Positions 1-28,008 of a DNA stretch of 64,000 nt are shown here, piece by piece. The notes below the pieces were generated by a model that ran no database searches, was not told the origin of the DNA, and saw only the letters and a program-made list of their open reading frames with translations. The DNA lies in NCBI RefSeq assembly GCF_009931435.1, contig NZ_CP043414.1. One strand, 5' to 3'. The position numbers were made by a program, and so were the translations under genes. Every line of letters starts with the position of its first letter. Position 1 is the stretch's first letter. The DNA comes from Escherichia coli (GTDB lineage Bacteria > Pseudomonadota > Gammaproteobacteria > Enterobacterales > Enterobacteriaceae).

Positions 1-893
1 GCGATATGCTCACGGATACCCTGCTGTCAACGGAGGGTGCGCCACACTATCCGGGAATGACTCACCGGCATCAGCTTGCTGACACCGTGGTAAACGGTTT
101 TTCTGCCGATCCACTCCAGGCACTTCAGTCCGAAAGCCTGATTACCGCGGGCGATCCGCTTTCAGGCATTGCGGCTGTCCGGCCATCGGCACCGCTGTCC
201 GATCCGGCAAGTAATGGGGGGATCAATACGCCGTTTATGGATCTGCCGCCCATTTATGCCAGCCCCGGCGAGCGTAATGATGACGTCTCTGTGGCAGAAA
301 TGGCGCAACGCCACCTTGCGGTCACCCCCTTACTGCGCGGCCTTGGCGGCTCGCTTACCGTGAGCAATTCCGACGATGCGGATGATTTTCTGGAGGAGGC
401 CGGACGCACGTTACAGGCCGCAATAAAAGGTCTGCTTGATTTGCAGCAGCAGCGTAACAGCCTCTCAGACAAACATTTGCGCCCGCTGGAAGATAACCCG
501 CTGCGCCTGAACATGGATTACGCCACCGCGCTCGACGTGATGTTTGCCGAAGGTAAAAGTCCGGTACATCTGGCGGCTCCCGCCGCTGTCAGTGAAAGCC
601 TGCGCAATGTCCGCCACCACGAAGAAGCTAACCGGGCGGCGATTGTGGAGTCGCTTCGTGTCCTGCTGGACGCCTTCTCACCACAAAATCTGCTGCGCCG
701 CTTTGTGCAGTACCGCCGCAGCCATGAACTGCGCCAGCCGCTGGATGATGCCGGAGCATGGCAAATGTACAGCCATTATTACGAAGAGCTGGCCTCTGAT
801 CGCCAGCAGGGGTTTGAGATGCTGTTTAACGAGGTCTACGCCCAGGTCTATGACCGGGTGCTTCGTGAAAAACAGCGGGAGCCGGAAGCATGA
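1..893 (+). CDS. T6SS cluster protein, 5'-truncated by the window edge; possibly the C-terminal part of an FHA-domain TagH-like protein
   Basis: Open frame runs to the window start and ends in an ATGA overlap with the next gene at 890-893. Position is immediately upstream of tssJ, as fha is in Vibrio-type vas clusters. No diagnostic motif lies in the visible part, so identity is inferred from context only. Confidence 0.4.
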   Translation, partial: DMLTDTLLSTEGAPHYPGMTHRHQLADTVVNGFSADPLQALQSESLITAGDPLSGIAAVRPSAPLSDPASNGGINTPFMDLPPIYASPGERNDDVSVAEMAQRHLAVTPLLRGLGGSLTVSNSDDADDFLEEAGRTLQAAIKGLLDLQQQRNSLSDKHLRPLEDNPLRLNMDYATALDVMFAEGKSPVHLAAPAAVSESLRNVRHHEEANRAAIVESLRVLLDAFSPQNLLRRFVQYRRSHELRQPLDDAGAWQMYSHYYEELASDRQQGFEMLFNEVYAQVYDRVLREKQREPEA

Positions 894-1414
894 ACAGGAA
901 GGCGTTTCTGGCCTGCGTGCTGATGTGCGTCATATTAACCGGCTGCGAAACGGCGAAAAAAATCAGCGAGGTGATCAAAAACCCGGATATCCAGGTCGGG
1001 AGCCTGAAGGAGCAACCTTCGGAAATAACCGTCACCCTGCTGACTGAACCGGACACTAATACCAATGCGGAGGGTGAATCAGCCGCCGTGGATGTGCAAC
1101 TGGTGTACCTGACGGACGACTCAAAATTGCAGGCAGCCGACTATGACCAGATAGCCAGTACGCCGCTACCGGATGTGCTGGGTAAAAACTATATCGACCA
1201 CCAGGATTTCAACCTGTTGCCGGACACCATCAAAACCCTGCCGCTGGTAAAGCTGGATGAGAAAACGCAGTTTATTGGTGTCGTGGCCTATTTCTCCGAT
1301 GACCAGGCCACGGAATGGAAACAAATCGAGACGGTGGAAGGAACCGGCCACCATTACCGCCTGCTGGTGCATGTACGTCAAAGCAGCATCGAAATGAAAA
1401 AAGAGGATGAATAA
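890..1414 (+). CDS. tssJ: T6SS outer-membrane lipoprotein TssJ
   Basis: 174 aa with signal peptide and lipobox (LTGC) at the N-terminus; size and position directly upstream of tssK-tssL fit TssJ; 4-nt overlap with the upstream gene. Confidence 0.75.
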   Translation: MNRKAFLACVLMCVILTGCETAKKISEVIKNPDIQVGSLKEQPSEITVTLLTEPDTNTNAEGESAAVDVQLVYLTDDSKLQAADYDQIASTPLPDVLGKNYIDHQDFNLLPDTIKTLPLVKLDEKTQFIGVVAYFSDDQATEWKQIETVEGTGHHYRLLVHVRQSSIEMKKEDE

Positions 1415-1416
1415 GT

Positions 1417-2748
1417 ATGGCAACCACCCGCAACAAGGTGATGTGGCAGGAAGGGATGCTGATGCGCCCACACCATTTCCAGCAACAGCAGCGTTACAAC
1501 GACTACCTGGATAACCAGCGTTTCCGGGCCATGAATGATTTATCCTGGGGATTTACCGAACTCACCCTCAACAATGAACTGCTGGCGCAGGGTAAGATCA
1601 TGATTGACAGCGCGTCAGGCACACTGCCCGACGGCACCGTCTTTTCTATCCCCGACCAGGACGCACTGCCCGATCCGCTGCACCCGCAAAATTTTCCGGA
1701 CGAAAGAAGCCGCAATATCTACCTCGCTCTGCCGGTCGCCAGTGATGTGAGAAATGAAATCAGCGACGGGCGGCGAATCGGGCGTTACCGGCTGAATTAT
1801 GCCGATGTCCGGGATTTGCATTCAGAAGAAGGCGACGCGCGAACACTGACGCTGGGACAACTGACGCCGCGCATTATGAGCGGTGCAGAAGATATGAGCG
1901 CCTATATCACGCTCCCGCTTTGCCGTATCAGCGATCGCCATGCCGACGGCTCCCTGACGCTGGATGACGATTTTATCCCCTCCTGCCAGAATATTCAGGT
2001 CAGTAAGAAACTGCGTGTTTATCTCAAAGAGGTACAGGGGGCCATTAGCGGACGGGCAAGCGATCTGGCAAACCGTATTGGCTCTCCGGCGCAGAGCGGC
2101 ATCGCGGATGTGGCGGAATTTATGATGTTGCAGTTGCTTAACCGTAACCAGACCCGGTTTACCCATCGCGCCCGCCGATCCCAGCTCCACCCGGAAGATT
2201 TCTACCTTGATCTTGCCGGGTTGCTGGGTGAACTGATGACCTTTACCGAGCCGTCGCGCCTGCCCTGCCCGCTTGATGTGTATGATCATCATGACCTGAC
2301 CAAAACATTTAAAACACTGTTACCGGAAGTCAAACGGGCGCTGCATACCGTACTGTCGCCAAGAGCCGTCAATCTGCCGCTGCATCTGCGTGACGGTATC
2401 TGGCAGGCCGATATCCATGACTCGGAACTGCTGCAATCTGCCACCTTTGTGCTGGCCGTGGCGGCAAATATGCCGGTCGATCAGATCCAGCGCCAGTTTA
2501 TCCAGCAGTCGAAAATTTCCTCGCCGGAAAAAATCCGCAATATGGTCAGTGTGCAGATCCCCGGCATTCCATTGCGTGCCCTGATGGTGGCTCCCCGTCA
2601 GCTTCCCTACCATTCCGGGTTCAGCTATTTCGAACTCGACAAGAGCGGACAGTCCTGGACAGAAATGGCTGCCGCCGGGGGCGTTGCGCTGCATGTATCC
2701 GGCAGTTTCCCGGATCTGAACATGCAACTGTGGGCGATAAGAGGGTAA
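1417..2748 (+). CDS. tssK: T6SS baseplate protein TssK
   Basis: 443 aa; N-terminus (NKVMWQEGMLMRPHHFQQQQRY) matches the conserved TssK N-terminal signature; purine-rich RBS upstream. Confidence 0.85.
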   Translation: MATTRNKVMWQEGMLMRPHHFQQQQRYNDYLDNQRFRAMNDLSWGFTELTLNNELLAQGKIMIDSASGTLPDGTVFSIPDQDALPDPLHPQNFPDERSRNIYLALPVASDVRNEISDGRRIGRYRLNYADVRDLHSEEGDARTLTLGQLTPRIMSGAEDMSAYITLPLCRISDRHADGSLTLDDDFIPSCQNIQVSKKLRVYLKEVQGAISGRASDLANRIGSPAQSGIADVAEFMMLQLLNRNQTRFTHRARRSQLHPEDFYLDLAGLLGELMTFTEPSRLPCPLDVYDHHDLTKTFKTLLPEVKRALHTVLSPRAVNLPLHLRDGIWQADIHDSELLQSATFVLAVAANMPVDQIQRQFIQQSKISSPEKIRNMVSVQIPGIPLRALMVAPRQLPYHSGFSYFELDKSGQSWTEMAAAGGVALHVSGSFPDLNMQLWAIRG

Positions 2749-2752
2749 GACG

Positions 2753-3514
2753 ATGGATGAGGGGTCACTGTCTCTGCCACCATTTACCGGATACGACGAA
2801 AAAAGCCAGCGCGACTATCATCTCGCGCTTCGTGGCAACAGCCTGAATCCGATGATCGACGCAGCCACGCCACTCCTCGGTATGGTGATGCGCCTTTCAA
2901 CCATGAACAGCCAGACGATGCCGGAGCATCTTTTTGCACAGGTGGTGACGGATGTTCAGGCCGTGGAGCAACTGCTTCAGGAGCAGGGCTACGAACCGGG
3001 CGTGATTATCTCGTTTCGCTACATCCTCTGCACATTTATTGATGAAGCGGCGCTCGGTAACGGCTGGTCGAACAAGAACGAGTGGATCAAACAGTCATTG
3101 CTGGTCCATTTCCACAACGAAGCCTGGGGTGGCGAGAAAGTTTTCATCCTGCTGGAGCGCCTGATCCGTGAACCCAAACGTTACCAGGATCTGCTGGAAT
3201 TTCTCTGGCTCTGTTTTTCTCTGGGATTTCGCGGGCGCTACAAAGTGGCAGCACAGGATCAGGGGGAATTTGAGCAGATCTACCGCCGCCTGTACCACGT
3301 TCTGCATAAACTGCGCGGCGATGCCCCTTTCCCGCTGTTACACCAGGACAAAAAAACCCAGGGCGGGCGTTATCAGCTCATCAGTCGCCTGACCATTAAA
3401 CATATTTTTTGTGGTGGCGTTGTCGTGCTGGCGTTGTTTTACCTGTTCTATCTGTTGCGGCTGGACAGCCAGACGCAGGACATCCTGCACCAGCTAAACA
3501 AATTACTTCGATAA
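2753..3514 (+). CDS. tssL: T6SS membrane-complex protein TssL (DotU family)
   Basis: 253 aa with a single C-terminal hydrophobic helix (GGVVVLALFYLFYLL), typical DotU/TssL architecture; follows tssK. Confidence 0.8.
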   Translation: MDEGSLSLPPFTGYDEKSQRDYHLALRGNSLNPMIDAATPLLGMVMRLSTMNSQTMPEHLFAQVVTDVQAVEQLLQEQGYEPGVIISFRYILCTFIDEAALGNGWSNKNEWIKQSLLVHFHNEAWGGEKVFILLERLIREPKRYQDLLEFLWLCFSLGFRGRYKVAAQDQGEFEQIYRRLYHVLHKLRGDAPFPLLHQDKKTQGGRYQLISRLTIKHIFCGGVVVLALFYLFYLLRLDSQTQDILHQLNKLLR

Positions 3515-3522
3515 GGACGTTT

Positions 3523-6282
3523 ATGATCCAGATTGATCTTCCCACGCTGGTAAAACGGCTTAACCTGTTCTCCCGCCAGGCGCTGGAGATGGCCGCCTCT
3601 GAATGTATGAGCCAGCAGGCAGCGGAAATTACCGTCAGCCATGTGCTTATTCAGATGCTCGCCATGCCACGCAGTGACCTGCGGGTTATTACCCGCCAGG
3701 GCGATATTGGCATGGAAGAGTTGCGCCAGGCGCTGACGGTGGAGAACTACACAACCGCCCGTTCTGCGGACAGCTACCCGGCGTTTTCCCCGATGCTGGT
3801 TGAGTGGCTGAAAGAGGGCTGGCTGCTGGCGTCGGCTGAGATGCAGCACAGCGAACTGCGCGGCGGCGTGTTGCTGCTGGCCCTGCTGCATTCGCCGCTG
3901 CGTTATATACCGTCTGCTGCCGCCCGGCTGTTGACCGGCATTAACCGTGACCGTCTGCAACAGGACTTTGTGCAGTGGACACAGGAGTCGACGGAATCAG
4001 TCGTGCCGGATGCAGACGGTAAAGGCGCAGGCACACTGACGGATGCTGCTGACACCCAGCTTGCCCGCTACGCCAAAAACATGACCGAAGATGCCCGTAA
4101 CGGCAGGCTTGACCCGGTACTGTGCCGCGACCACGAAATCGACCTGATGATCGACATTCTCTGCCGCCGCCGTAAAAATAACCCGGTGGTGGTGGGCGAA
4201 GCAGGCGTGGGTAAAAGCGCGCTGATTGAAGGGCTGGCGCTGCGCATCGTGGCAGGCCAGGTGCCGGACAAACTGAAAAACACCGATATCATGACCCTTG
4301 ACCTGGGCGCATTGCAGGCCGGGGCATCGGTGAAGGGCGAGTTTGAAAAACGCTTCAAGGGGCTGATGGCGGAGGTCATTTCCTCCCCGGTGCCAGTCAT
4401 TCTGTTTATCGACGAAGCGCATACCCTGATTGGGGCGGGCAACCAGCAGGGCGGGCTGGATATCTCCAACCTGCTCAAACCGGCGCTGGCGCGCGGCGAG
4501 CTGAAAACCATCGCCGCCACCACCTGGAGCGAGTACAAAAAATACTTCGAGAAAGACGCTGCCCTGTCGCGCCGCTTCCAGTTGGTGAAGGTCAGCGAAC
4601 CCAACGCCGCCGAAGCCACCATTATTCTGCGTGGTCTGTCGGCGGTCTATGAACAGTCTCACGGCGTACTGATTGATGATGACGCCTTGCAGGCCGCTGC
4701 GACATTAAGTGAGCGTTATCTCTCCGGGCGTCAGTTGCCGGACAAAGCGATTGATGTGCTGGATACGGCCTGCGCCCGCGTGGCAATCAACCTGTCATCG
4801 CCACCAAAGCAAATCTCAGCGCTGACCACCCTGAGCCACCAGCAGGAGGCGGAAATTCGCCAGCTTGAGCGCGAGCTTCGCATCGGGCTGCGTACCGACA
4901 CCTCGCGGATGACGGAGGTGCTGGTGCAGTATGATGAAACGCTGACGGCGCTGGACGAACTGGAAGCCGCCTGGCATCAGCAACAGACGCTGGTACAGGA
5001 AATTATCGCGCTGCGCCAGCAGTTGCTGGGTATGGCAGAAGACGATGCGGCGTCGTTGCCGGACGCAGATGCCGTGGGGGATATGCCGTCGGAGTCAGAG
5101 CAGGATAATACCGGTGCCGCACCGGCTGATGAAGCTGGCAGCGCACAGCCGGAAGAAACCGCTGAAACAGTTTCCCCGGTACAACGGCTGGCACAGCTTA
5201 CTGCCGAACTGGACGCCCTGCATAACGACCGGTTGCTGGTCTCCCCGCACGTCGATAAAAAACAGATTGCGGCGGTGATTGCCGAATGGACCGGCGTGCC
5301 GCTTAACCGCCTGTCGCAGAATGAAATGTCGGTCATCACCGACCTGCCAGTATGGCTGGGCGACACCATCAAAGGCCAGGACCTGGCGATTGCCAGCCTG
5401 CATAAACATCTGCTGACCGCACGCGCCGACCTGCGCCGTCCGGGACGCCCGCTTGGCGCGTTCCTGCTGGCTGGCCCCAGCGGCGTGGGTAAAACCGAAA
5501 CCGTCCTGCAACTGGCAGAGCTTCTCTACGGTGGTCGCCAGTACCTGACCACCATCAATATGTCCGAGTTCCAGGAGAAGCACACCGTCTCGCGGCTGAT
5601 TGGTTCCCCTCCGGGCTATGTCGGCTATGGTGAAGGCGGCGTGCTGACCGAAGCCATCCGCCAGAAACCCTACTCAGTGGTGCTCCTCGATGAAGTGGAA
5701 AAAGCGCACCCGGATGTGCTCAACCTGTTCTACCAGGCGTTTGACAAGGGCGAGATGGCAGACGGCGAAGGCCGCCTGATTGACTGTAAAAACATCGTCT
5801 TCTTCCTCACCTCCAACCTTGGCTACCAGGTGATTGTCGAACACGCCGATGACCCGGAGACCATGCAGGAAGCCCTCTATCCGATGCTGGCGGACTTCTT
5901 TAAACCTGCCCTGTTGGCGCGTATGGAAGTGGTGCCGTACCTGCCTCTGTCGAAAGAGACGCTCGCCACCATTATTGCCGGGAAACTCACCCGTCTGGAT
6001 AACGTGCTGCGCAGTCGCTTTGGTGCGGAAGTGATTATTGAGCCGGAAGTGACGGACGAAATTATGAGCCGCGTCACCCGAGCGGAAAACGGCGCAAGGA
6101 TGCTCGAATCAGTCATCGACGGCAACATGCTGCCGCCGCTCTCGCTGCTGCTGTTGCAGAAGATGGCAGCCAACACGGCGATTGCCCGGATTCGTCTGTC
6201 GGCGGCAGACGGTGCATTCACAGCAGACGTGGAAGATGCTCAGGACGACGAGTCCGTCACAGAGGATGAAACGGTTTTATGA
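3523..6282 (+). CDS. clpV: T6SS AAA+ ATPase ClpV (TssH)
   Basis: Two AAA+ modules with Walker A motifs GEAGVGKS and GPSGVGKT and ClpB-like architecture. Start placed at ATG 3523 (MIQIDLPTLVKRLN), downstream of the tssL stop; the ORF-track start at 3409 overlaps tssL and is rejected. Confidence 0.9.
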   Translation: MIQIDLPTLVKRLNLFSRQALEMAASECMSQQAAEITVSHVLIQMLAMPRSDLRVITRQGDIGMEELRQALTVENYTTARSADSYPAFSPMLVEWLKEGWLLASAEMQHSELRGGVLLLALLHSPLRYIPSAAARLLTGINRDRLQQDFVQWTQESTESVVPDADGKGAGTLTDAADTQLARYAKNMTEDARNGRLDPVLCRDHEIDLMIDILCRRRKNNPVVVGEAGVGKSALIEGLALRIVAGQVPDKLKNTDIMTLDLGALQAGASVKGEFEKRFKGLMAEVISSPVPVILFIDEAHTLIGAGNQQGGLDISNLLKPALARGELKTIAATTWSEYKKYFEKDAALSRRFQLVKVSEPNAAEATIILRGLSAVYEQSHGVLIDDDALQAAATLSERYLSGRQLPDKAIDVLDTACARVAINLSSPPKQISALTTLSHQQEAEIRQLERELRIGLRTDTSRMTEVLVQYDETLTALDELEAAWHQQQTLVQEIIALRQQLLGMAEDDAASLPDADAVGDMPSESEQDNTGAAPADEAGSAQPEETAETVSPVQRLAQLTAELDALHNDRLLVSPHVDKKQIAAVIAEWTGVPLNRLSQNEMSVITDLPVWLGDTIKGQDLAIASLHKHLLTARADLRRPGRPLGAFLLAGPSGVGKTETVLQLAELLYGGRQYLTTINMSEFQEKHTVSRLIGSPPGYVGYGEGGVLTEAIRQKPYSVVLLDEVEKAHPDVLNLFYQAFDKGEMADGEGRLIDCKNIVFFLTSNLGYQVIVEHADDPETMQEALYPMLADFFKPALLARMEVVPYLPLSKETLATIIAGKLTRLDNVLRSRFGAEVIIEPEVTDEIMSRVTRAENGARMLESVIDGNMLPPLSLLLLQKMAANTAIARIRLSAADGAFTADVEDAQDDESVTEDETVL

Positions 6283-7022
6283 GCAGGTTGCGCGTTTTCC
6301 GGCAGACAGGATGGTTTATCGCGGGCCTGATGGCGGGCTTACCCGCCAGTGCCGCGCCCGCAGAAACATCGTCAGTGGCCGGTGTGGCGGTAGCTGTCGC
6401 CACAGCGACACCGCCGGATGCGACAGCCACGTTACAGGCCATGCGGTCCTGTCGCCAGGAGACGGCGGCGCTGGAGCGGCTTGACTGCTATGACCGCCTG
6501 CTGGCACCCCTTTCTCCGTCAGGGTTTGACGGGGCGCTGGTCAAAGCCGGTTTTGTGGGCGAGGCCTGGACCCGCGCCACAGAGCAGGAAAAACGCCGCC
6601 AGGGCAACACCACAGAGCTGCTGGTGACGCAGGTGCCGGGAGAACGCCCGACGGTGGTGGTAACCACCCCGGCTATCGGCCATGTTCCGCCTCGCCCGGT
6701 GCTGATGTTCAGCTGTGTGGACAATATCACCCGGATGCAGGTGGCGCTGGTGCACCCTCTGGATGTCCATGATATCGCCGTCACCCTGAATGCCGACAGC
6801 CGGGTATTGCGCAGCCACTGGTTTGTGCGCGAGAACGGCACCCTGCTGGAGTCCAGCCGGGGGCTGTCCGGGATTGATGAAATTAAGCAACTGTTCGGCG
6901 CAAAAACGCTGACGGTGGATACCGGCGCAGATAACGCCGCCGGAAAGCTGACCTTTAACATTGACGGGCTAGCAAGGGCGATTGCCCCCCTGCGCGATGC
7001 CTGCCACTGGGCGGGAGAATAA
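6279..7022 (+). CDS. T6SS-associated secreted/periplasmic protein, VasI-like
   Basis: 247 aa with N-terminal signal peptide; occupies the vasI position between clpV and tssA; ATGA start/stop overlap with clpV. Confidence 0.55.
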   Translation: MSRLRVFRQTGWFIAGLMAGLPASAAPAETSSVAGVAVAVATATPPDATATLQAMRSCRQETAALERLDCYDRLLAPLSPSGFDGALVKAGFVGEAWTRATEQEKRRQGNTTELLVTQVPGERPTVVVTTPAIGHVPPRPVLMFSCVDNITRMQVALVHPLDVHDIAVTLNADSRVLRSHWFVRENGTLLESSRGLSGIDEIKQLFGAKTLTVDTGADNAAGKLTFNIDGLARAIAPLRDACHWAGE

Positions 7023-7026
7023 AAAT

Positions 7027-8442
7027 ATGGCAATGGACTTACGCGATCCGAATGTCTGGATATCGCACCTGCTGGAAAACCTGCCGGAAGAGAAACTGGC
7101 ATCGGCGCTGAAAGATGACAACCCGGACTGGGAGTATATCGACGGCGAAATCGTCAAACTGGGTTCACTGGCCCACAGCCAACTGGATATCCCGGAACTC
7201 CAGCGCCGGGGGCTGGTCATTCTGGCTTCGGAGAGTAAGGATTTTCGTCTGCTGGCACACCTGCTCAGAACCCTGCAACATGCCGGTGATCCACTGCTGG
7301 CACTGCGCCTGCTGGCGCTATACGTGGAACATTACTGGACTGTGGCCGCGCCGCAGAATATGGCGCATAAAAAACGCTTTGCCAGCCAGATCATTAAACG
7401 TTTTGAAACGGGTATTGAAGGCTTTTCACAGAACGCCGCCACCGCGCAGCGCGATGCACTATTAGGTGAACTGGCGAAACTGGCGCAGTGCTGGCAGTCA
7501 CATAACGCCCCGGAACTGGCAGAGGCTACTGATGATCTTTTTGCCCTGTACCAGCGTGCGTTTAATCGTGCGGCACCGGCTCCTGCCCACACTCCGGCGG
7601 CCTCCGGTAGTTCACCACAGACCACCGCCACGTCTGAAAGCGGCGTGACGCAAACCAGTGCTCCGGCTCCACAGATCGCCATCGACAGTCACGACGACAA
7701 AGCCTGGCGCGACACGCTGTTAAAAGTGGCGGCCATTTTATGTGAACGCCAGCCGGACTCGCCGCAGGGCTATCGCCTGCGCCGCCATGCCCTGTGGCAA
7801 TCCATCACCAGTACGCCCCAGGCGGAAAGCGATGGACGCCCCCCACTGGCTGCGGTCTCCGCCGATATGGTGGCAGATTACCATGCTCAGCTCGGTAGTG
7901 CCGATATGGCGCTGTGGCAGCAGGTGGAAAAAAGCGTACTGCTGGCACCCTACTGGCTGGACGGTCACTGCATTTCTGCACAGACGGCGCACCGTCTTGG
8001 CTATACCGCCGTGGCCGATGCCATCCGCGATGAAGTCGTTTCCTTTCTTGGCCGTCTGCCCGCGCTCGCTGATCTTCTGTTTAACGACCACACACCGTTT
8101 GTTTCTGAAAAAACGAAGCAATGGCTTGCAACTCAGCCAGGTAACCAGGCCGCGCCAGTCATACAGGTGAGTAATGAAGATATTCAGGCTGCGCGGTTGT
8201 GTTTTGATGAACAGGGGCTGGAAGCCGCCTTACGGTATCTGGATACGTTGCCCGCCGGTGAACCCCGCGACCAGTTTCACCGGCAGTATTTTGGCGCGCA
8301 GCTTATGGAAGAGGCGGGGCTGGTACAGCTTGCGCAGCAGCAGTACCGGATGTTGTTCAGGATGGGATTGCAGATGATGGTGGCAGACTGGGAGCCGTCC
8401 CTGCTTGAGCAGCTAGAACAAAAATTCACGGCAGAACAATAA
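7027..8442 (+). CDS. tssA: T6SS protein TssA (VasJ-type, ImpA N-terminal domain family)
   Basis: About 471 aa from ATG 7027 (MAMDLRDPNVW); sits at the vasJ position upstream of tssM; N-terminal region resembles the ImpA-N domain. Family assignment is by context and general resemblance. Confidence 0.65.
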   Translation: MAMDLRDPNVWISHLLENLPEEKLASALKDDNPDWEYIDGEIVKLGSLAHSQLDIPELQRRGLVILASESKDFRLLAHLLRTLQHAGDPLLALRLLALYVEHYWTVAAPQNMAHKKRFASQIIKRFETGIEGFSQNAATAQRDALLGELAKLAQCWQSHNAPELAEATDDLFALYQRAFNRAAPAPAHTPAASGSSPQTTATSESGVTQTSAPAPQIAIDSHDDKAWRDTLLKVAAILCERQPDSPQGYRLRRHALWQSITSTPQAESDGRPPLAAVSADMVADYHAQLGSADMALWQQVEKSVLLAPYWLDGHCISAQTAHRLGYTAVADAIRDEVVSFLGRLPALADLLFNDHTPFVSEKTKQWLATQPGNQAAPVIQVSNEDIQAARLCFDEQGLEAALRYLDTLPAGEPRDQFHRQYFGAQLMEEAGLVQLAQQQYRMLFRMGLQMMVADWEPSLLEQLEQKFTAEQ

Positions 8443-8460
8443 AAGAGAACAGGAGTTTTT

Positions 8461-11400
8461 GTGTTCAGATTACCAACACCCCGACTATTCAGCGGACTCA
8501 AATCAGCCCTGCGCCCGGCGATGCCCCGGTTTAAAGTTTCTGCATTCTGGCTGCTGATACTGGCGTGGATTTTCCTGCTGGTATGGATCTGGTGGAAAGG
8601 CCCGGCATGGACGCTGGATGAAGAGCAGTGGCTCAAACCACTGGCGAACCGCTGGCTGGCAACGGCGGCGTGGGGGATTATTGCCCTGGTGTGGCTTACC
8701 GTCCGGGTAATGAAGCGCCTGCAACAGCTTGAAAAAATGCAAAAGCAACAGCGCGAGGAAGCCGTTGATCCGCTCAGTGTGGAACTGAACGCCCAGCAGC
8801 GTTACCTCGACCGCTGGCTGCTGCGCCTGCAACGCCATCTCGACAACCGCCGTTTCCTGTGGCAGTTGCCGTGGTATATGGTCATCGGTCCTGTGGGCAG
8901 TGGCAAAACGACACTGCTGCGCGAGGGGTTTCCGTCAGACATTATTTATGCCCCGGAGGGCGCGCACGGCGCAGAACAACGCCTGTACCTCACGCCCCAT
9001 GTCGGTAAACAGGCGGTGATCTTTGATATCGACGGCACACTCTGCGCTCCCGCTGATGCGGATATCCTGCATCGCCGTCTGTGGGAACATGCCCTCGGCT
9101 GGCTGAAGGAAAAGCGCGCGCGCCAGCCGCTGAACGGGATTATTCTGACACTCGATTTACCCGATCTGCTGACCGCAGACAAACGCCGCCGCGAGCATCT
9201 GTTACAGACGCTGCGCAGCCGCTTACAGGATATACGCCAGCATCTTCATTGCCAGTTACCGGTTTACGTGGTACTGACCCGGCTTGATTTATTGCAGGGT
9301 TTTGCCGCCCTGTTTCAGTCACTGAACAGACAGGATCGCGATGCGATTCTGGGTGTTACGTTCACCCGCCGTGCTCATGAAAATGATGACTGGCGAACAG
9401 AGTTGAATGCTTTCTGGCAGACATGGGCGGATCGAATGAATCTGGCGTTGCCGGATCTGATGGTCACCCAGACTCACACCCGCGCGTCTTTATTTAGTTT
9501 TTCCCGCCAGATGCAGGGAAGCCGTGAACCGCTGATATCACTGCTGGAGGGTCTGCTTGACGGCGAAAATATGAACGTGATGCTGCGTGGTGTCTATCTC
9601 ACCTCTTCGCTTCAGCGTGGACAGATGGATGATATATTCACCCAGTCTGCTGCCCGCCAGTACCGACTGGGCAATAACCCACTGGCGTCCTGGCCTCTGG
9701 TGGACACCGCGCCTTATTTCACCCGCAGCCTGTTCCCGCAGGCATTACTCGCAGAGCCTAATCTGGCAACAGAGAGCCGCGCCTGGCTGATGCGTTCCCG
9801 TCGCCGCCTGACGGTTTTCTCTGCCACAGGCGGCGTGGCGGCACTGCTGCTCATCACCGGCTGGAATCACTATTACAACGGTAACTATCAGTCCGGCATC
9901 ACCGTGCTTAAGCAGGCCAAAGCCTTTATGGACGTGCCGCCTCCGCAGGGGGAAGATGACTTTGGTAACCTACAACTGCCGCTGCTGAACCCGGTACGCG
10001 ATGCCACACTGGCCTATGGCGACTGGGGTGACCGCAGCCGCCTGGCCGATATGGGACTGTACCAGGGGCGACGTATCGGGCCTTATGTGGAACAGACCTA
10101 TCTGCAACTGCTGGAGCAGCGTTACCTGCCCTCGCTGTTTAACGGGCTGGTCAAAGCGATGAACGCCGCACCGCCGGAGAGTGAGGAAAAACTCGCGGTG
10201 CTGCGCGTGATGCGAATGCTGGAGGACAAAAGCGGACGCAACAATGAGGTGGTGAAGCAGTATATGGCAAAACGCTGGAGCGAAAAGTTCCACGGACAGC
10301 GCGATATCCAGACACAACTGATGTCCCATCTTGACTACGCGCTGGCTCATACTGACTGGCATGCAGAGCGTCAGGCGGGCGACGGTGATGCCATCAGCCG
10401 CTGGACGCCATATGACAAGCCTGTTGCGACAGCACAGAAAGAACTGAGCAAACTGCCTGTCTACCAGCGGGTTTACCAGAGCCTGAAAACGCGGGCGCTG
10501 GGCGTTCTTCCTGCTGACCTCAATCTGCGTGACCAGGTAGGGCCAACCTTTGACCAGGTGTTTACATCTGCCGATGATAACAAACTGGTTGTTCCACAGT
10601 TTCTTACCCGTTACGGCCTGCAAAGCTATTTTGTAAAACAGCGCGATGAACTGGTTGAACTGACGGCGATGGATTCCTGGGTACTCAACCTCACCCGCAG
10701 CGTGAAATACAGTGACGCCGACCGCGCGGAAATTCAGCGCCAGTTGACCGAGCAGTATATCAGCGACTACACCGCCACCTGGCGGGCCGGGATGGACAAT
10801 CTCAATATCCGCAATTTTGAGTCCATTGGACAACTGACTGGCACTCTGGAGCAGGTTATCAGCGGCGACCAGCCTTTGCAGCGGGCGCTGACCGTGCTGC
10901 GTGACAACACACAGCCAGGCGTCTTTTCTGAAAAACTCTCTGCCAAAGAGCGGGATGAGGCCCTGGCAGAGCCGGATTACCAGTTACTCACCCGCCTCGG
11001 GCATGAATTCGCCCCGGAAAACAGTACCCTGACAGTACAGAAAGACAAAGAAAGCACGATGCAGGCCGTATACCAGCAGCTCACCGAGTTACACCGCTAC
11101 CTGCTGGCAATCCAGAACGCGCCTGTACCAGGGAGATCGGCGCTGAAAGCCGTGCAGTTAAGGCTTGATCAGAACTGCAGCGATCCAATATTCGCCACCC
11201 GCCAGATGGCAAAAACACTGCCTGCTCCGCTCAACCGCTGGGTAGGCAGGCTGGCTGACCAGGCCTGGCATGTGGTGATGGTGGAAGCCGTTCACTATAT
11301 GGAAGTGGACTGGCGCGACAGCGTGGTGAAACCGTTTAACGAGCAACTGGCAAATAACTATCCGTTTAATCCACGTTCTGCACAGGATGCCTCACTGGAT

Positions 11401-11985: not shown

Positions 11986-11995
11986 GGAGGCAGGG

Positions 11996-13348
11996 ATGAA
12001 TAGTAACGTACTGACACAAACTATCGTTACCGGCAGTGACCCGCGCGGGCTGCCGGAATTCAGCGCCATCCGCGAGGAAATAAACAAAGCCAGCCACCCG
12101 TCACAGCCTGAGCTGAACTGGAAACTGGTGGAGTCGCTGGCGCTGGCGATTTTTAAAGCTAACGGTGTGGATTTACACACCGCCACCTACTATACGCTTG
12201 CACGGACACGGACACAGGGACTGGCGGGCTTTTGCGAAGGTGCGGAACTGCTGGCGGCAATGGTAAGCCACGACTGGGATAAGTTCTGGCCGCAGGGCGG
12301 CCCGGCGCGTACTGAAATGCTGGACTGGTTTAACTCCCGAACCGGCAATATTCTGCGTCAGCAAATCTCCTTTGCGGAATCCGACCTACCACTGATCTAC
12401 CGCACGGAGCGGGCATTGCAGCTTATCTGCGACAAACTCCAGCAGGTAGAGCTGAAGCGCGTTCCGCGCGTGGAGAATCTGCTCTATTTTATGCAGAACA
12501 CGCGTAAACGGCTTGAACCCCAGCCGAAGAGTAACGCCGAGAACACCTCACAGACCACGGTCAGAACGCTGATTTATGCACCGGAAACAATGGCTTCCTC
12601 CACGCCAGAAGCAGTAGTGCCTCCCCTGCCCGACCTGCCCGAGATGAAAGTGGAAGTGCGCAGTCTGTCAGAAAATCCCCCACAGGCCAGTGTGATGAAG
12701 CAAGGCAGTACGGTAAGAGGGTTTATCGCAGGGATCGTCTGTTCAGTGGCTGTCGCCTCAGCATTGTGGTGGTGGCAGGTCTATCCGGTGCAGCAGCAAC
12801 TGTTACAGGTTAACGACACCGCGCAGGGCGCAGCAACGGTGTGGATGGCCTCACCTGAACTCGAAAACTATGAGCGCAGGTTGCAACAGCTTCTTGGCGT
12901 CTCCCCGGTACAACCGCTGGAAACCGGAATGCAGATGATGCGTGTTGCCGACAGTCGCTGGCCGGAAAGCCTGCAACAGCAACAGGCCTCGACACAATGG
13001 AATGAGGCACTCAAAACCCGCGCACAGAGTAGCCCGCAGTTGCGTGGCTGGTTGCAGACCCGCCAGGACTTACATGCTTTTGCAGATCTCGTGATGCAGC
13101 GCGAGAAAGAGGGACTAACCCTTTCCTATATCAAAAATGTCATCTGGCAGGCGGAGCGGGGACTGGGGCAGGAAACACCCCTGGAATCCCTGCTGACGCA
13201 GTACCAGGATGCCCGTGCACAGAAGCAGAATACAGATGCGCTGGAAAAACAAATTAATGAGCGACTCGAAGGCGTGTTAAGCCGCTGGCTGCTGCTGAAG
13301 AATAACGTCATGGCAGAGGCGGCAACCGGGACCACGACCGGAAAATAA
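11996..13348 (+). CDS. T6SS accessory protein, VasL/TagA-like, membrane-anchored
   Basis: About 450 aa from ATG 11996 with GAGGAGG RBS; one internal hydrophobic helix (FIAGIVCSVAVASALWWW); occupies the vasL position immediately after tssM. Confidence 0.55.
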   Translation: MNSNVLTQTIVTGSDPRGLPEFSAIREEINKASHPSQPELNWKLVESLALAIFKANGVDLHTATYYTLARTRTQGLAGFCEGAELLAAMVSHDWDKFWPQGGPARTEMLDWFNSRTGNILRQQISFAESDLPLIYRTERALQLICDKLQQVELKRVPRVENLLYFMQNTRKRLEPQPKSNAENTSQTTVRTLIYAPETMASSTPEAVVPPLPDLPEMKVEVRSLSENPPQASVMKQGSTVRGFIAGIVCSVAVASALWWWQVYPVQQQLLQVNDTAQGAATVWMASPELENYERRLQQLLGVSPVQPLETGMQMMRVADSRWPESLQQQQASTQWNEALKTRAQSSPQLRGWLQTRQDLHAFADLVMQREKEGLTLSYIKNVIWQAERGLGQETPLESLLTQYQDARAQKQNTDALEKQINERLEGVLSRWLLLKNNVMAEAATGTTTGK

Positions 13349-13371
13349 TTATTTAGTTAAAGGAGATTATC

Positions 13372-13854
13372 ATGGCAAATATGAGTTATTTATCTTTAAG
13401 TGGGGAGACACAAGGGCTGATTTCAGCGGGTTGCTCAACGCTTGACTCTGTCGGAAACAAAGCGCAGTTAGAGCATAAAGATCAGATCATGGTTTATGCG
13501 CTAATGCACTCCATCTCAAGAAGTCAGAATGTCAATCATCATGAACTGGTCATCACCAAGCCTGTTGATAAATCCTCACCGTTGCTGGCAAAAGCACTTA
13601 GTGACAATGAAAAAATGACAGCGTGTGAATTTATACTCTACCGAACCAGTAAAGAGGGCATTAACCAGCCTTACTATAAAATAAATCTGTCAAAAGCCAG
13701 GATATCAAGTATTGATTTTGTCACACCTCATGCTGTTCTGGAAAAAGAACTGGAGCCACAGGAGAGAATTGCCTTTATTTATGAAGATATTTCCTGGGAG
13801 CATACGTTAGCCAGGACGAATGCAATGAGTAAATGGCAGGATCGTGTACAGTAA
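13372..13854 (+). CDS. hcp: T6SS tube protein Hcp (TssD)
   Basis: 160 aa; N-terminus MANMSYLSLSGETQG and overall size match the Hcp family; AAGGAG RBS; lower GC than the upstream core genes. Confidence 0.9.
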   Translation: MANMSYLSLSGETQGLISAGCSTLDSVGNKAQLEHKDQIMVYALMHSISRSQNVNHHELVITKPVDKSSPLLAKALSDNEKMTACEFILYRTSKEGINQPYYKINLSKARISSIDFVTPHAVLEKELEPQERIAFIYEDISWEHTLARTNAMSKWQDRVQ

Positions 13855-13896
13855 CATACTGCAATAACATAATAACTTACTATTACGGAGAGATAA

Positions 13897-14811
13897 ATGG
13901 CTGGTTTAAGGAATAATAACAACACACAGAATGCACAGTGGGCTGATTATGTGGGTGACATTCTTCGGGGGTCTCAGCCGATAAACCAGCTAGTACCTCA
14001 GCACCCTTATCTTAACGACATCCCACTCATTGATGAGTTAAGGCGTCAGAACACTCATCATGTTATTCTTTTGACATTTGATGTTGCAAAAAAAATACTC
14101 AACCCAATAACATCATTTGATTACATTCATTTTATCACTACACATCCTTCAGGTATAAAAGATACACTAGCCTGGTTAGTTAACGCGGGTAAATTAATGA
14201 CTGAGTTTGATGAAAATGGGAAAATTATATTTAACCTTAATACCTTAAAGTATACAAAAGCAAGTTACTTTGAAATACTTGGAGAGAAATATATAAAAAT
14301 CACAACATCCAGCCCCTGGCTTTTAGAAAAGCTCGGTAAATATATTTTCTCTTCACGAGCGCCTCAAGTTCTGGAGCTCGCTATTGGCTGGCGAGGAGCT
14401 TTATCTGAATCAATAAAAGGAGTTAAGTTCTGTATCTGGTTTTCAGTAGCCTGGAGAACCATAGAATTTATTATGAGTTCAGAGCGAGATCTGGTTAATT
14501 TTCTTGGTGATTTTTCAATGGATGTGGCCAAAGCAGTGATTGCAGGCGGTGTTGCAACCGCTATTGGAAGCCTGGCTTCTTTTGCCTGTCTTAGTTTTGG
14601 CCTTCCAGTAATTCTTGTAGGAGGAGCAATTTTACTTACAGGGATAGTGTGTACAGTTGTTTTAAATGAAATCGATGCTCAATACCATTTATCAGAAAAA
14701 TTAAAAGATGCAATTAGAGATGGACTAAAACAGCAACAGGAACTTGATAAATGGAAAAGGGAAAACATGACTCCATTTATGTATGTTCTTAACACCCCCC
14801 CCGTGATATGA
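13897..14811 (+). CDS. Hypothetical protein with C-terminal glycine-rich transmembrane helices; candidate T6SS effector
   Basis: 304-aa ORF 42 nt downstream of hcp with RBS; AT-rich; C-terminal third has 2-3 hydrophobic helices with small-residue motifs (VIAGGVATAIGSLASFACLSF, LPVILVGGAILLTGIVCTVVL). The C-terminal 112 codons from an internal ATG at 14473 appear to match what I recall as the K-12 yafU remnant (from memory, unverified). Confidence 0.6.
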   Translation: MAGLRNNNNTQNAQWADYVGDILRGSQPINQLVPQHPYLNDIPLIDELRRQNTHHVILLTFDVAKKILNPITSFDYIHFITTHPSGIKDTLAWLVNAGKLMTEFDENGKIIFNLNTLKYTKASYFEILGEKYIKITTSSPWLLEKLGKYIFSSRAPQVLELAIGWRGALSESIKGVKFCIWFSVAWRTIEFIMSSERDLVNFLGDFSMDVAKAVIAGGVATAIGSLASFACLSFGLPVILVGGAILLTGIVCTVVLNEIDAQYHLSEKLKDAIRDGLKQQQELDKWKRENMTPFMYVLNTPPVI

Positions 14812-14820
14812 GGATTAACT

Positions 14821-15288
14821 ATGTGTTTACATGTTAAATTGAAAGAGTTTCTTTCGATGTTTTTTATAGCCATGTTATTTTTCCCTGCATTCAATGCTTC
14901 TTTGTTTTTTACCGGAATTAAACCTCTATACTCAATAATAAAAGGCTCCACGGAAATATTTTATGATTGGAGAATGTTGATTCTATTCTTCGGTTTCATA
15001 TCGTTTTCCTTGTTAAATATTCATGTAATTTTACTAACGATAATAAAATCATTCTTAATAAAAAAAACAAAGGTAATCAATTTCGCCACAAACATAACAA
15101 TACAGCTAACTCTTATATTTTTACTAATAGCTATCGTAATAGCACCTTTAATAGCTCCTTTTGTCACAGGATATGTCAATGCTAATTATCACCTCTGCGG
15201 TAATAACACGGGGATTTTCCCAGGAGCAATCTATATTAAAAATGGCATGGAATGTAATAATGATTATATTTCTCACAAGGAAGATTAA
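14821..15288 (+). CDS. Small polytopic inner-membrane protein; candidate immunity protein (possibly the ykfM homologue)
   Basis: 155 aa, extremely AT-rich, at least three predicted transmembrane helices; starts 9 nt after the stop of the 304-aa gene. Position relative to yafT and aspV matches my recollection of K-12 ykfM. Confidence 0.55.
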   Translation: MCLHVKLKEFLSMFFIAMLFFPAFNASLFFTGIKPLYSIIKGSTEIFYDWRMLILFFGFISFSLLNIHVILLTIIKSFLIKKTKVINFATNITIQLTLIFLLIAIVIAPLIAPFVTGYVNANYHLCGNNTGIFPGAIYIKNGMECNNDYISHKED

Positions 15289-15429
15289 GCAGTTAAATAT
15301 TATAAAACAAACAGTTTTTAACTCCGGATTCCATGTCCTTTTTTGCACTGTCTTTGTCAGGAAAAAATTTCTTATGCAAAGAATTTTGTATTATTGCCGC
15401 CAGAAATCCCTGCCGGCAGATATAATTTA

Positions 15430-16215
15430 TTATTGATAGCGGTTAACCAAATCTTTTACCATCGCTTTATAGGTCTTTTGCTTAAGTTGCATGATTTGCT
15501 GCTCTGTCATATCAGTCGTACTGGCTTCATTCTTGCCGGGCAATGGTGGAAGCACTTTATATTCATAATTCATCGGCGACCAGGCAGCCCACTCACCTGT
15601 AGCTACATCCACCAGCGTGAATCGCACCAGATAGCGCAGTGAGATTGTGTTAGTCAGTTTTTCATTTTTATAATCGGACCATACTGTTGATTTCAGCGCA
15701 GAGTCATATTTTCCTGTCTGCAACGTATCATGGTAAACAATAATCGCTTTCTGATGCCCTTTCGCAGCCACAAAACGCAATGCCTGCATCCAGTTCATAT
15801 TTTCAGCACTGGCAACATCCTCGTTCTCATTTTTATCTTTATTTTTGTTACAAGTCAGAGGCTTTTGCCTGTCCGGGATACCAGAGAATGTGGAAACAGT
15901 ATAATATTTTCTCATCTCCTCCTGCATAATGGTTTCCGGTGCGCGACTGCCAGACTGGACAAGTATTACGGGAGAATTGAGAGGCACACGAAACTCATCT
16001 CCTTCAAGCGCAGCCTGAATATCCTCCTCGGATACAGCCAGAGTGGTTTCATTACCGAATAAATCTTTGTCTGTCAGTTGCGGGGGAATGTTTTTATTAA
16101 TATTACTTTGTGTAACCTGAGCTTTTTTCTTTTTTTCATCAATAGAAGATTGAGAGGCACATCCTGCAAGCAGCGAGAATAATACACATATGCAACAAAC
16201 CTTTTTTGAATTCAT
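15430..16215 (-). CDS. yafT: Lipoprotein YafT
   Basis: 261 aa with signal peptide and lipobox (LLAGC); size and location next to aspV correspond to yafT of the E. coli backbone. Confidence 0.65.
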
Positions 16216-16482
16216 AATCGGACACTCCCTCGCCTGTCATAATGATTAGAATATTTAGCACTGATAACGGACTCTAATTATATACCCCACTTAAATAATA
16301 ACAAACAAAATCAACATGAAATATACATTCATTTAATCAATATAAAATTATTCTCTAAAAATATATTTAAGTTGAATGGTTCTATATCATTATTGAATTT
16401 TAATAAATGAGACAACAAGAGAGAGTTACACACTTACGCCAGAGTAAAATCATTGAACAGAGAAATTGCGGGATTTAAATGC

Positions 16483-16514
16483 AAAAAAACCGCAAAATTA
16501 AAAATCTTGCGGTT
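16483..16514 (-). terminator. Rho-independent terminator downstream of aspV
   Basis: On the minus strand: inverted repeat AACCGCAA / TTGCGGTT followed by a T-run (plus-strand A-run at 16484-16489). Confidence 0.5.
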
Positions 16515-16540
16515 CTCTGAACTCATTTTCATGAGTGAAT

Positions 16541-16617
16541 TTGGCGGAACGGACGGGACTCGAACCCGCGACCCCCTGCGTGACAGGCAGGTATTCTAAC
16601 CGACTGAACTACCGCTC
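16541..16617 (-). tRNA. aspV: tRNA-Asp (anticodon GUC)
   Basis: 77-nt exact match in reverse complement to E. coli tRNA-Asp (GGAGCGGTAGTTCAGTCGGTTAGAATACCTGCCTGTCACGCAGGGGGTCGCGGGTTCGAGTCCCGTCCGTTCCGCCA). Confidence 0.95.
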
Positions 16618-16750
16618 CGCGTTGTGTTCCGTTGGGAACGAGGCGAATATTACGGATTGCCTCACCCTTCGTCAATGGTTTTTCTCATCTTTTGAATCGT
16701 TTGCTGCAAAAATCGCCCAAGTCGCTATTTTTAGCGCCTTTTACAGGTAT

Positions 16751-17482: not shown

Positions 17483-17545
17483 AGCGGTCATTTATGTCAG
17501 ACTTGTCGTTTTACAGTTGATTCAATTACAGGAAGTCTACCAGAG

Positions 17546-25104: not shown

Positions 25105-28008
<2,904 letters not shown>

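What the first reader, a model, noticed from the sequence alone, without database searches (positions are those of the whole stretch)
3523..7022. No sigma-54 activator (vasH) gene between clpV and vasI
In the V. cholerae cluster the enhancer-binding protein gene vasH sits between clpV (vasG) and vasI. Here the clpV stop overlaps the vasI start (ATGA at 6279-6282), leaving no room for a regulator, and no AAA+ sigma-54 activator is present anywhere in the visible part of the island. Regulation of this cluster is therefore likely wired differently, for example through H-NS, Fur or other host regulators.
Basis: partly seen in the sequence, partly recalled or inferred. Interest (0 to 1): 0.35.

Follow-up and report, generated by a model that had tools for sequence, protein, structure and literature searches.

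The report
E. coli T6SS-2 lacks vasH

Summary
Observation confirmed. clpV/tssH (3523-6282) ends in an ATGA that is also the start of vasI (6279-7022). No sigma-54 interaction domain was found in the 64-kb window by Pfam on every island gene, six-frame motif search or tblastn. None was found in the complete island of a 97.7 %-identical collinear strain. Sigma-54 promoter motifs are no more frequent than chance and none lies in an intergenic region.

The window holds the 3' part of the E. coli aspV-linked 'T6SS2' structural operon (tagH to hcp2A), then core genes. The clpV|vasI junction is contiguous in 2734 of 2737 complete E. coli genomes that carry it. Published work on this cluster type reports H-NS silencing from a divergent tssB/hcp promoter and no Fur control.

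Comparison with related clusters suggests secondary loss. Shewanella-type clusters keep an intact VasH and a -24/-12 promoter before hcp. Hafnia keeps a degenerate pseudo-activator. Erwinia tracheiphila and Trabulsiella keep a conserved ~265-aa 'mini-VasH' without the AAA+ domain. E. coli and Citrobacter koseri keep nothing.

The finding is correct but ordinary. The VasH decay series is a modest side result.

The parts
1..893 (+). tagH (FHA-domain T6SS protein), 3' part; the gene starts upstream of the window
   Evidence: PF20232 T6SS_FHA_C, E 9e-42. Collinear from base 1 with the intact tagH of MS6198.
890..1414 (+). tssJ lipoprotein; 4-nt overlap with tagH
   Evidence: PF12790
1417..2748 (+). 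tssK baseplate subunit
   Evidence: PF05936, E 1e-142
2753..3514 (+). tssL (DotU)
   Evidence: PF09850
3523..6282 (+). clpV/tssH AAA+ sheath-recycling ATPase, 919 aa
   Evidence: TIGR03345 at 1125 bits, above the cutoff of 885; AAA_2, AAA_lid_9 and ClpB_D2-small
5035..5178 (+). acidic low-complexity linker inside ClpV (residues 505-552); its length varies between strains
   Evidence: 15 nt of gaps in strain 2020CK-00188, scattered across window 5044-5087
6279..6282 (+). ATGA overlap: vasI start codon and clpV stop codon, at the place where vasH sits in V. cholerae-type clusters
   Evidence: Sequence read directly. Contiguous in 2734 of 2737 E. coli genomes.
6279..7022 (+). vasI (tagO), 247 aa
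   Evidence: PF11319, E 8.5e-53; TIGR03360 at 257 bits
7027..8442 (+). tssA (VasJ)
   Evidence: PF16989 and PF06812
8461..11985 (+). tssM (IcmF); RefSeq annotates the start at the equivalent of window 8551
   Evidence: PF14331, PF06761, PF21070 and PF06744; MS6198 annotation
11993..13348 (+). vasL
   Evidence: PF12486 and PF06812
13372..13854 (+). hcp ('hcp2A'), 23 nt after vasL with a Shine-Dalgarno sequence only and no space for a promoter
   Evidence: PF05638; sequence
13897..16215 (.). AT-rich tail of the island (GC 36-38 %): a 304-aa unknown protein (+), ykfM (+), and a 261-aa protein on the minus strand that PGAP labels only 'hypothetical'; reading it as yafT is my inference from its position next to aspV
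   Evidence: No Pfam or NCBIfam match; GC profile; RefSeq names
16542..16618 (-). tRNA-Asp (aspV), the boundary of the island; core chromosome follows

Best explanation
The window carries the distal two-thirds of the structural operon of the E. coli aspV-island type VI secretion system, called 'T6SS2' in the APEC/EHEC literature. Its gene order matches the V. cholerae large cluster (tagH-tssJ-tssK-tssL-clpV-[vasH]-vasI-tssA-tssM-vasL) except for vasH. vasH is absent because the enterobacterial branch of this cluster type lost it, probably stepwise: an intact sigma-54 activator, then a catalytically dead pseudo-activator, then a domain-deleted 'mini-VasH', then nothing. In E. coli the deletion left clpV and vasI translationally coupled through ATGA. 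All genes from tagH to hcp are packed with -4 to +23 nt spacing, apart from the tssA/tssM gap of 18 or 108 nt depending on the start codon. hcp has no promoter of its own and is simply the last gene of the operon. Transcription therefore has to come from upstream of the window. In a related strain and in the literature this is the AT-rich (32 % GC) divergent tssB/hcp2B intergenic region, which holds sigma-70-type promoters silenced by H-NS. What is shown here: the absence of vasH and of sigma-54 motifs, the operon packing, the universality of the junction in E. coli, and the relics in relatives. What is taken from papers: H-NS repression, a single tssB-to-clpV/tssM transcript, and no Fur effect. 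What is inferred: secondary loss, and the rewiring of hcp.
For: The ATGA overlap is. No bEBP was found. The full island of MS6198 (97.7 % identical, collinear from window base 1) contains hcp(-), tssB, tssC, tssE, tssF, tssG and tagH onward, with no regulator gene. Sigma-54 motifs are at or below chance and all intragenic. The positive control worked: locus L007, matching Shewanella woodyi, has an intact VasH and carries TGGCACGATACTCGCT 65 nt upstream of hcp in a 220-nt gap, against a 23-nt gap in the window. GC is 32 % at the tssB/hcp intergenic region and 55-62 % in the operon. The junction is contiguous in 2734 of 2737 genomes. The state of the clpV-vasI interval in 11 related clusters is recorded. 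The Hafnia VasH lacks the GAFTGA loop, has Walker B DE changed to EN, and scores 60 bits against the ntrC model where the Shewanella VasH scores 322. The mini-VasH aligns to the N-terminal domain (E 6e-20) and the HTH (E 1e-5) of the Hafnia VasH and is conserved at 47-60 % identity in four named taxa. In a ClpV+VasI tree, E. coli plus C. koseri is sister (100 % bootstrap) to the mini-VasH clade, and clusters with VasH relics sit among vasH-less ones. Literature: PMC5363993, PMC5874247, PMC13141884, PMC10482370.
Against: The 5' half of the island and its promoter region lie outside the window, so I read them from another strain. The strain most similar overall (2020CK-00188, about 99.4 % identity) has that half deleted, so the state in the window's own strain cannot be seen. 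The window does diverge from that strain's deletion junction at about base 170 and continues as an intact tagH. The tree is neighbour-joining on ten clusters and two proteins, and some inner nodes are weak (55 %). Horizontal exchange of cluster parts could mimic multiple losses. The motif scan cannot exclude an atypical sigma-54 promoter or a bEBP encoded elsewhere in the genome. All regulation claims rest on other E. coli strains.
Confidence: 0.8

Rival explanations
1. The cluster is still sigma-54 dependent, but it uses an enhancer-binding protein encoded elsewhere on the chromosome; by my recollection E. coli has about a dozen.
For: The window shows only 64 kb of a roughly 5-Mb genome. Review PMC10482370 lists RpoN among the regulators of Klebsiella T6SS locus I and of Plesiomonas.
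Against: No TGGCAC-N5-TTGCW match with 2 or fewer mismatches lies in any intergenic region of the island, including the tssB/hcp promoter region of L002. Counts are below the shuffle mean. The same scan did find the expected promoter in a VasH-positive cluster. The EHEC and APEC studies read here explain expression through H-NS, and the terms 'sigma' and 'VasH' do not occur in PMC13141884.
Confidence: 0.05
2. vasH was never part of this lineage: the vasH-less order is ancestral and Vibrio/Shewanella-type clusters gained vasH by insertion.
For: The junction in E. coli is clean, with no detectable relic. One vasH-less cluster (L018) branches at the base of the enterobacterial group.
Against: VasH relics occupy exactly the same slot, with the same 4-nt overlaps, in clusters nested inside the enterobacterial group. 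These are the Hafnia pseudo-bEBP and the mini-VasH of E. tracheiphila and Trabulsiella. The mini-VasH clade is the 100 %-supported sister of the E. coli + C. koseri clade. Decay from a full bEBP explains these forms; independent gain of fragments does not.
Confidence: 0.08
3. The cluster in this strain is a decaying, non-functional remnant, so the missing regulator is just one aspect of the erosion.
For: The most similar genome has lost the 5' half of the island at an RHS/ISAs1 junction and carries a frameshifted tssM lacking the equivalent of window 10781-11090.
Against: In the window every T6SS ORF from tssJ to hcp is full length with complete domain matches. tagH continues past that strain's deletion point. 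The vasH-less junction is shared by essentially all E. coli, including strains with an experimentally active system (PMC5363993).
Confidence: 0.1

Closest known systems
E. coli aspV-island T6SS ('T6SS2' of APEC/ExPEC; EHEC EDL933 Z0243-Z0275)
   Same: Same chromosomal site next to tRNA-Asp aspV, same gene order and 90-99 % DNA identity. Same hcp placement after vasL. The published regulation by H-NS at the divergent tssB/hcp promoter applies to this cluster type (PMC5363993, PMC5874247, PMC13141884).
   Different: Nothing of substance. The window shows only the part from tagH onward. It has allelic differences, including a variable acidic linker in ClpV and a divergent clpV-3'/vasI-5' region that is 91-93 % identical to most strains.
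Vibrio cholerae large T6SS cluster with VasH (vasA-vasL; by my recollection VCA0107-VCA0123, VasH = VCA0117)
   Same: Identical order of tagH, tssJ, tssK, tssL, clpV, vasI, tssA, tssM and vasL, and the same accessory families VasI and VasL. The V. cholerae gene order is from my own knowledge. The equivalent order was verified here in Shewanella-type loci L006 and L007.
   Different: No vasH, no sigma-54 promoter, and hcp fused to the end of the operon instead of lying behind its own -24/-12 promoter.
Hafnia alvei / Obesumbacterium proteus T6SS cluster (L014)
   Same: An enterobacterial member of the same cluster type; ClpV is 63.5 % identical to the window's.
   Different: Retains a 502-aa VasH homologue between clpV and vasI. 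It has no GAFTGA loop, Walker B is EN instead of DE, and the sensor-II Arg is replaced.
'mini-VasH' clusters of Erwinia tracheiphila and Trabulsiella odontotermitis (L004, L020)
   Same: The closest outgroup of the E. coli/C. koseri clusters in the ClpV+VasI tree (100 % bootstrap). Same 4-nt coupling style.
   Different: They keep a protein of about 265 aa made of the VasH N-terminal domain plus the Fis-type HTH_8, with the AAA+ module missing. E. coli has nothing in that slot.

Membership tests
T6SS-associated sigma-54 enhancer-binding protein (VasH) | Sigma-54 interaction AAA+ domain (PF00158) encoded in the cluster | tested here: not met
   No PF00158 hit in any island gene. tblastn with a validated bEBP core gave a best E of 0.11 in the window and 3.5 in the full island L002.
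T6SS-associated sigma-54 enhancer-binding protein (VasH) | GAFTGA sigma-54 contact motif and ESELFGH / bEBP Walker A in any reading frame | tested here: not met
   The six-frame regex search of 64 kb found none, apart from one chance GAGTGA in vasL.
T6SS-associated sigma-54 enhancer-binding protein (VasH) | A gene located between clpV and vasI | tested here: not met
   ATGA overlap at 6279-6282. No similarity to four VasH forms around the junction.
Sigma-54-dependent T6SS transcription unit | -24 GG / -12 GC promoter (TGGCAC-N5-TTGCW) upstream of hcp, vgrG or tssB | tested here: not met
   36 matches against 43 expected in the window and 26 against 32 in L002, all intragenic. The control locus L007 shows the motif 65 nt upstream of hcp.
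E. coli aspV-island T6SS ('T6SS2', V. cholerae-like type) | Core and accessory genes tagH, tssJ, tssK, tssL, tssH, vasI, tssA, tssM, vasL and hcp in this order | tested here: met
   Pfam and NCBIfam assignments. The order is identical to the RefSeq annotation of MS6198.
E. coli aspV-island T6SS ('T6SS2', V. cholerae-like type) | Insertion next to tRNA-Asp aspV, between yafV and dnaQ | tested here: met
   tRNA-Asp at 16542-16618 followed by dnaQ and rnhA. The yafV side lies outside the window.
E. coli aspV-island T6SS ('T6SS2', V. cholerae-like type) | The 5' module tssB-tssC-tssE-tssF-tssG and the divergent hcp/vgrG module are present | not testable with these tools
   These lie upstream of window base 1. 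They are present in MS6198 and deleted in strain 2020CK-00188.
H-NS-silenced horizontally acquired island | AT-rich promoter region bound by H-NS; derepression in an hns mutant | not testable with these tools
   The 32 % GC at the tssB/hcp intergenic region of L002 is compatible with this. The experimental evidence is only in the literature, for EHEC and APEC.

The most novel reading that the evidence does not exclude
The enterobacterial branch of the V. cholerae-type T6SS records a stepwise dismantling of its dedicated sigma-54 activator. Hafnia and Obesumbacterium keep a full-length VasH whose sigma-54 contact loop and ATPase residues are destroyed. A conserved family of about 265 aa in Erwinia tracheiphila, Trabulsiella, Entomohabitans and others keeps only the sensory N-domain and the DNA-binding HTH. 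Escherichia, Citrobacter and several other lineages deleted the gene completely, and did so more than once. If the relics are functional, they would be sigma-54-independent DNA-binding regulators derived from a bEBP, as I recall for TyrR or DhaR, and E. coli T6SS2 would be the end point where host factors such as H-NS took over.
Probability: 0.45. Interest if true: 0.35.

Novelty: already known. Interest (0 to 1): 0.15.

Why it matters
For the window itself it matters little. It confirms that this is a standard E. coli T6SS2 operon, and that any search for its activating signal should look at the upstream divergent promoter, H-NS antagonists and post-transcriptional control rather than at RpoN. 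The natural inducing signal of this system is still reported as unknown (PMC13141884), so ruling out a dedicated sigma-54 circuit on sequence grounds is a useful, if minor, boundary condition. The side result is a natural series from intact VasH, through a pseudo-activator and a domain-deleted mini-VasH, to complete loss. It could serve as a small case study of how a horizontally acquired secretion system sheds its private regulator and comes under host control.

Tried and rejected
I replaced it with 12 look-ups of individual VasI and mini-VasH representatives, so the taxon sampling is thin (11 informative clusters).
2. Bernard et al. 2011 (PMC3133059), the survey of sigma-54/bEBP in T6SS clusters, is not held in the library. 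What I say about it is from memory only and is not used as evidence.
3. I looked for a vasH relic in the ClpV C-terminal tail and the VasI N-terminal extension of the window. tblastn with four VasH forms gave only chance hits (E of about 1 or worse), plus one AAA-to-AAA similarity inside ClpV D2.
4. Contexts L016 and L017 were too short to show a whole upstream gene. L017's 73-aa upstream fragment is a ClpV C-terminus, so that cluster has no vasH. L016 was uninformative.
5. The first bootstrap attempt timed out. I redid it with a numpy Kimura-distance NJ.
6. An Rfam scan found no RNA family in the island.
7. The simple sigma-70 promoter and terminator scan of 1-16700 was not above its shuffle expectation (17 against 13.3 and 14 against 18.1) and gave no convincing internal promoter.
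8. Two full-text searches found no paper that states explicitly that E. coli T6SS2 lacks vasH. The 'already known' label rests on the published cluster maps and regulation studies, not on an explicit sentence.
Full report
WHAT THE REGION IS

The ORF map and the Pfam and NCBIfam scans show that window 1-16.3 kb is the distal part of a type VI secretion island:
- tagH (1-893, its 5' end lies outside the window)
- tssJ (890-1414)
- tssK (1417-2748)
- tssL (2753-3514)
- clpV/tssH (3523-6282; TIGR03345 at 1125 bits, cutoff 885)
- vasI (6279-7022; TIGR03360 at 257 bits)
- tssA (7027-8442)
- tssM (8461 or 8551 to 11985)
- vasL (11993-13348)
- hcp (13372-13854)
- three AT-rich genes with no family match (13897-16215)
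- tRNA-Asp (16542-16618)

The rest of the window is core E. coli chromosome: dnaQ, rnhA, gloB, mltD, an rrn operon, metNIQ, rcsF, proS, dnaE, the lpx genes and so on. About half of the complete E. coli genomes (2894 of 5426) carry this DNA. The best match is 99 % identical (strain 2020CK-00188) and most others are 90-97 %. This is the aspV-island system called T6SS2 in the APEC/EHEC literature (PMC5363993, PMC5874247).

CHECK OF THE OBSERVATION

Bases 6279-6282 read ATGA, so the vasI start codon overlaps the clpV stop codon. No island gene has a sigma-54 interaction domain. A six-frame search of all 64 kb for GAFTGA-type, ESELFGH and bEBP Walker-A motifs found nothing except one chance GAGTGA in vasL. 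I recalled an NtrC central domain and first checked that it scores 223 bits on PF00158. Used as a tblastn query it found nothing better than E = 0.11 in the window.

The window stops inside tagH, so I used strain MS6198 as a proxy for the missing part. It is collinear with the window from base 1 at 97.7 % identity. Its complete island reads yafV, IS fragments, hcp(-), tssB, a hypothetical gene, tssC, tssE, tssF, tssG, tagH and onward, with no regulator gene, and it gave no tblastn hit either (best E 3.5). A 401-nt probe across the junction is contiguous in 2734 of the 2737 E. coli genomes that have it, so this is the species-wide state.

SIGMA-54 PROMOTERS

TGGCAC-N5-TTGCW with up to two mismatches occurs 36 times in the window against 43.3 +/- 6.4 in shuffles. 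It occurs 26 times in the MS6198 locus against 31.8 +/- 5.0. Within the island every match is inside a coding region, and none falls in the 700-bp tssB/hcp intergenic region of MS6198.

The scan can find real sites. In locus L007, which matches Shewanella woodyi and has an intact VasH, TGGCACGATACTCGCT lies 65 nt upstream of hcp in a 220-nt vasL-hcp spacer. A match with one or fewer mismatches on the right strand within those 220 nt has a chance probability of roughly 0.003 by my own arithmetic. In the window the vasL-hcp spacer is 23 nt and contains only a Shine-Dalgarno sequence.

HOW IT MOST LIKELY WORKS

From tagH to hcp the genes are separated by -4 to +23 nt. The exception is the tssA/tssM gap, 18 or 108 nt depending on the start codon. 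The simple scan gave no convincing internal promoter or terminator. This packing fits one long transcript that begins upstream of the window.

That agrees with experiments on EHEC EDL933. There the tssB side of a divergent promoter drives a single polycistronic operon that includes clpV and tssM. H-NS binds the tssB/hcp3 intergenic region, and hns deletion raises the T6SS mRNAs (PMC13141884; PMC5363993). In APEC, hns inactivation raises clpV2, hcp2A and hcp2B, whereas iron limitation and fur inactivation do not (PMC5874247). The composition fits as well: the operon is 55-62 % GC while the promoter region is 32 % GC.

WHY vasH IS MISSING

A search of 1.84 billion representative proteins with VasI gave 308 relatives. 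I looked up the genomic context of representatives across the identity range. The table lists, by VasI identity to the window, what lies between clpV and vasI.

| VasI identity | Source | Between clpV and vasI |
|---|---|---|
| 63 % | Citrobacter koseri | nothing (4-nt overlap) |
| 45 % | Erwinia tracheiphila | 268-aa protein with only a Fis-type HTH_8 |
| 44 % | Enterobacteriaceae MAG | nothing |
| 40 % | unnamed | nothing |
| 39 % | unnamed (two clusters) | nothing |
| 35 % | Hafnia / Obesumbacterium | 502-aa VasH |
| 34 % | unnamed | VasH |
| 32 % | Shewanella woodyi | VasH |
| 30 % | unnamed | VasH |

The alignment shows how the VasH forms differ. The Shewanella-type proteins have an intact Walker A, ESELFGYEKGAFSGA and Walker B. 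The Hafnia protein has lost the GAFTGA loop through an 8-residue deletion, has EN in place of the Walker B DE, and has Leu in place of the sensor-II Arg. It scores 60 bits on the ntrC model, where the Shewanella protein scores 322.

The E. tracheiphila protein aligns to Hafnia VasH residues 38-131 (E 6e-20) and 447-497 (E 1e-5). It is therefore the N-terminal domain joined to the HTH, with the AAA+ module gone. It is not a one-off pseudogene. Proteins of 261-266 aa at 47-60 % identity occur in Trabulsiella odontotermitis, Entomohabitans teleogrylli, Enterobacteriaceae bacterium 4M9 and in metagenomes. In Trabulsiella the gene lies between clpV and vasI with 4-nt overlaps on both sides.

A neighbour-joining tree of ClpV+VasI (1053 ungapped columns, 500 bootstraps) gives these supports:
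- E. coli + C. koseri: 100 %
- that pair as sister to E. tracheiphila + Trabulsiella: 100 %
- all enterobacterial clusters together, apart from Shewanella: 100 %
- the vasH-less cluster L018 branching at the base of the enterobacterial group: 98 %

Relic-bearing clusters are thus interleaved with vasH-less ones. The simplest reading is an early loss of activator function followed by several independent deletions, one of them in the ancestor of the E. coli/Citrobacter clusters. No relic is detectable in the window. This inference rests on few taxa and a distance tree, and I hold it at about 0.8.

COMPARISON WITH WHAT IS KNOWN, AND NOVELTY

The cluster is a regular member of E. coli T6SS2, and every defining feature that the window allows me to test is met. 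It works like the V. cholerae system mechanically but lacks that system's VasH/RpoN circuit. That circuit is documented for V. cholerae, Aeromonas hydrophila, V. fischeri and V. fluvialis (PMC10482370).

The gene maps of the E. coli cluster and its H-NS control have been published for years. I found no paper that states the absence of vasH in so many words, but nothing here would surprise a T6SS specialist. I rate the finding as already known, with interest 0.15. The VasH decay series and the conserved mini-VasH family are the only things that might be new. I did not check this against the literature beyond two keyword searches, so I offer it as the 'novel case' at moderate probability.

CAVEATS

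- The island's 5' half and promoter are not in the window.
- The most similar genome has that half deleted at an RHS/ISAs1 junction and a frameshifted tssM. The window, however, diverges from that junction at about base 170 and continues as an intact tagH.
- All regulatory statements are transferred from other strains.
- A trans-acting bEBP with an atypical promoter cannot be strictly excluded by sequence alone.

Noticed in passing
L001 (E. coli 2020CK-00188) 13825-17894, 27754-27767; window ~170 and 10781-11090: The genome most similar to the window (about 99.4 % identity) has lost the whole 5' half of the island. tagH is cut at the equivalent of window base ~170 and abuts an RHS fragment and an ISAs1 transposase. 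Its tssM lacks the equivalent of window 10781-11090 and is annotated as frameshifted. The window's strain does not share the tagH junction or the tssM deletion.
   Followed up: partly
L014/L015 5496-7004 (Hafnia alvei / Obesumbacterium proteus): A full-length VasH homologue (502 aa) sits between clpV and vasI. Its GAFTGA loop is deleted, Walker B DE is changed to EN, and the sensor-II Arg is changed to Leu. It looks like a pseudo-enhancer-binding protein that probably cannot activate sigma-54.
   Followed up: partly
L004 3086-3892, L005 365-1171, L020 8001-8798: A conserved 'mini-VasH' family of about 265 aa consists of the VasH N-terminal domain plus the Fis-type HTH, with the AAA+ domain missing. 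It occurs in Erwinia tracheiphila, Trabulsiella odontotermitis, Entomohabitans teleogrylli and others at 47-60 % identity. The gene is translationally coupled to clpV and vasI.
   Followed up: partly
L007 13930-14063: Upstream of the sigma-54-type promoter of hcp in the Shewanella-type cluster, the sequence CTGGGCCATTTATTGC occurs twice about 45 nt apart, with inverted TGGGCAATA / TATTGCCCAG elements. These are possible VasH enhancer sites.
   Followed up: no
window 13897-16215: The tail of the island is AT-rich (36-38 % GC against 55-62 % in the operon). It encodes a 304-aa protein with hydrophobic C-terminal segments, the small membrane protein YkfM, and a 261-aa lipoprotein-like protein on the minus strand. 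None has a Pfam or NCBIfam match. Because they lie directly after hcp, they are candidates for an Hcp-linked effector/immunity pair.
   Followed up: no
window 5035-5178: ClpV contains a 48-residue acidic, low-complexity linker (AEDDAASLPDADAVGDMPSESEQDNTG...). Its length differs between strains: it is 15 nt shorter in 2020CK-00188. It makes this ClpV 919 aa long, against 859-877 aa in several relatives.
   Followed up: partly
window 18431-18446 (-): The best sigma-54 consensus match in the whole window, TGGCACATACATTGCC, lies inside the yafS coding region on the gene's own strand. It is conserved in MS6198. It is intragenic and unrelated to the T6SS.
   Followed up: no
window 6080-6480: The clpV 3' end and vasI 5' end are markedly more divergent from most E. 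coli (91-93 % identity) than the surrounding 6 kb (up to 96.8 % in the same kind of strains). This suggests a variable ClpV tail and VasI signal-peptide region, or recombination.
   Followed up: no
L004 4571-5775 and L020 9508-10898: In the mini-VasH clusters, tssA is called as two ORFs: ImpA_N plus VasJ parts in E. tracheiphila, and a 282-aa plus a 167-aa ORF in Trabulsiella. This is either a split TssA or gene decay.
   Followed up: no
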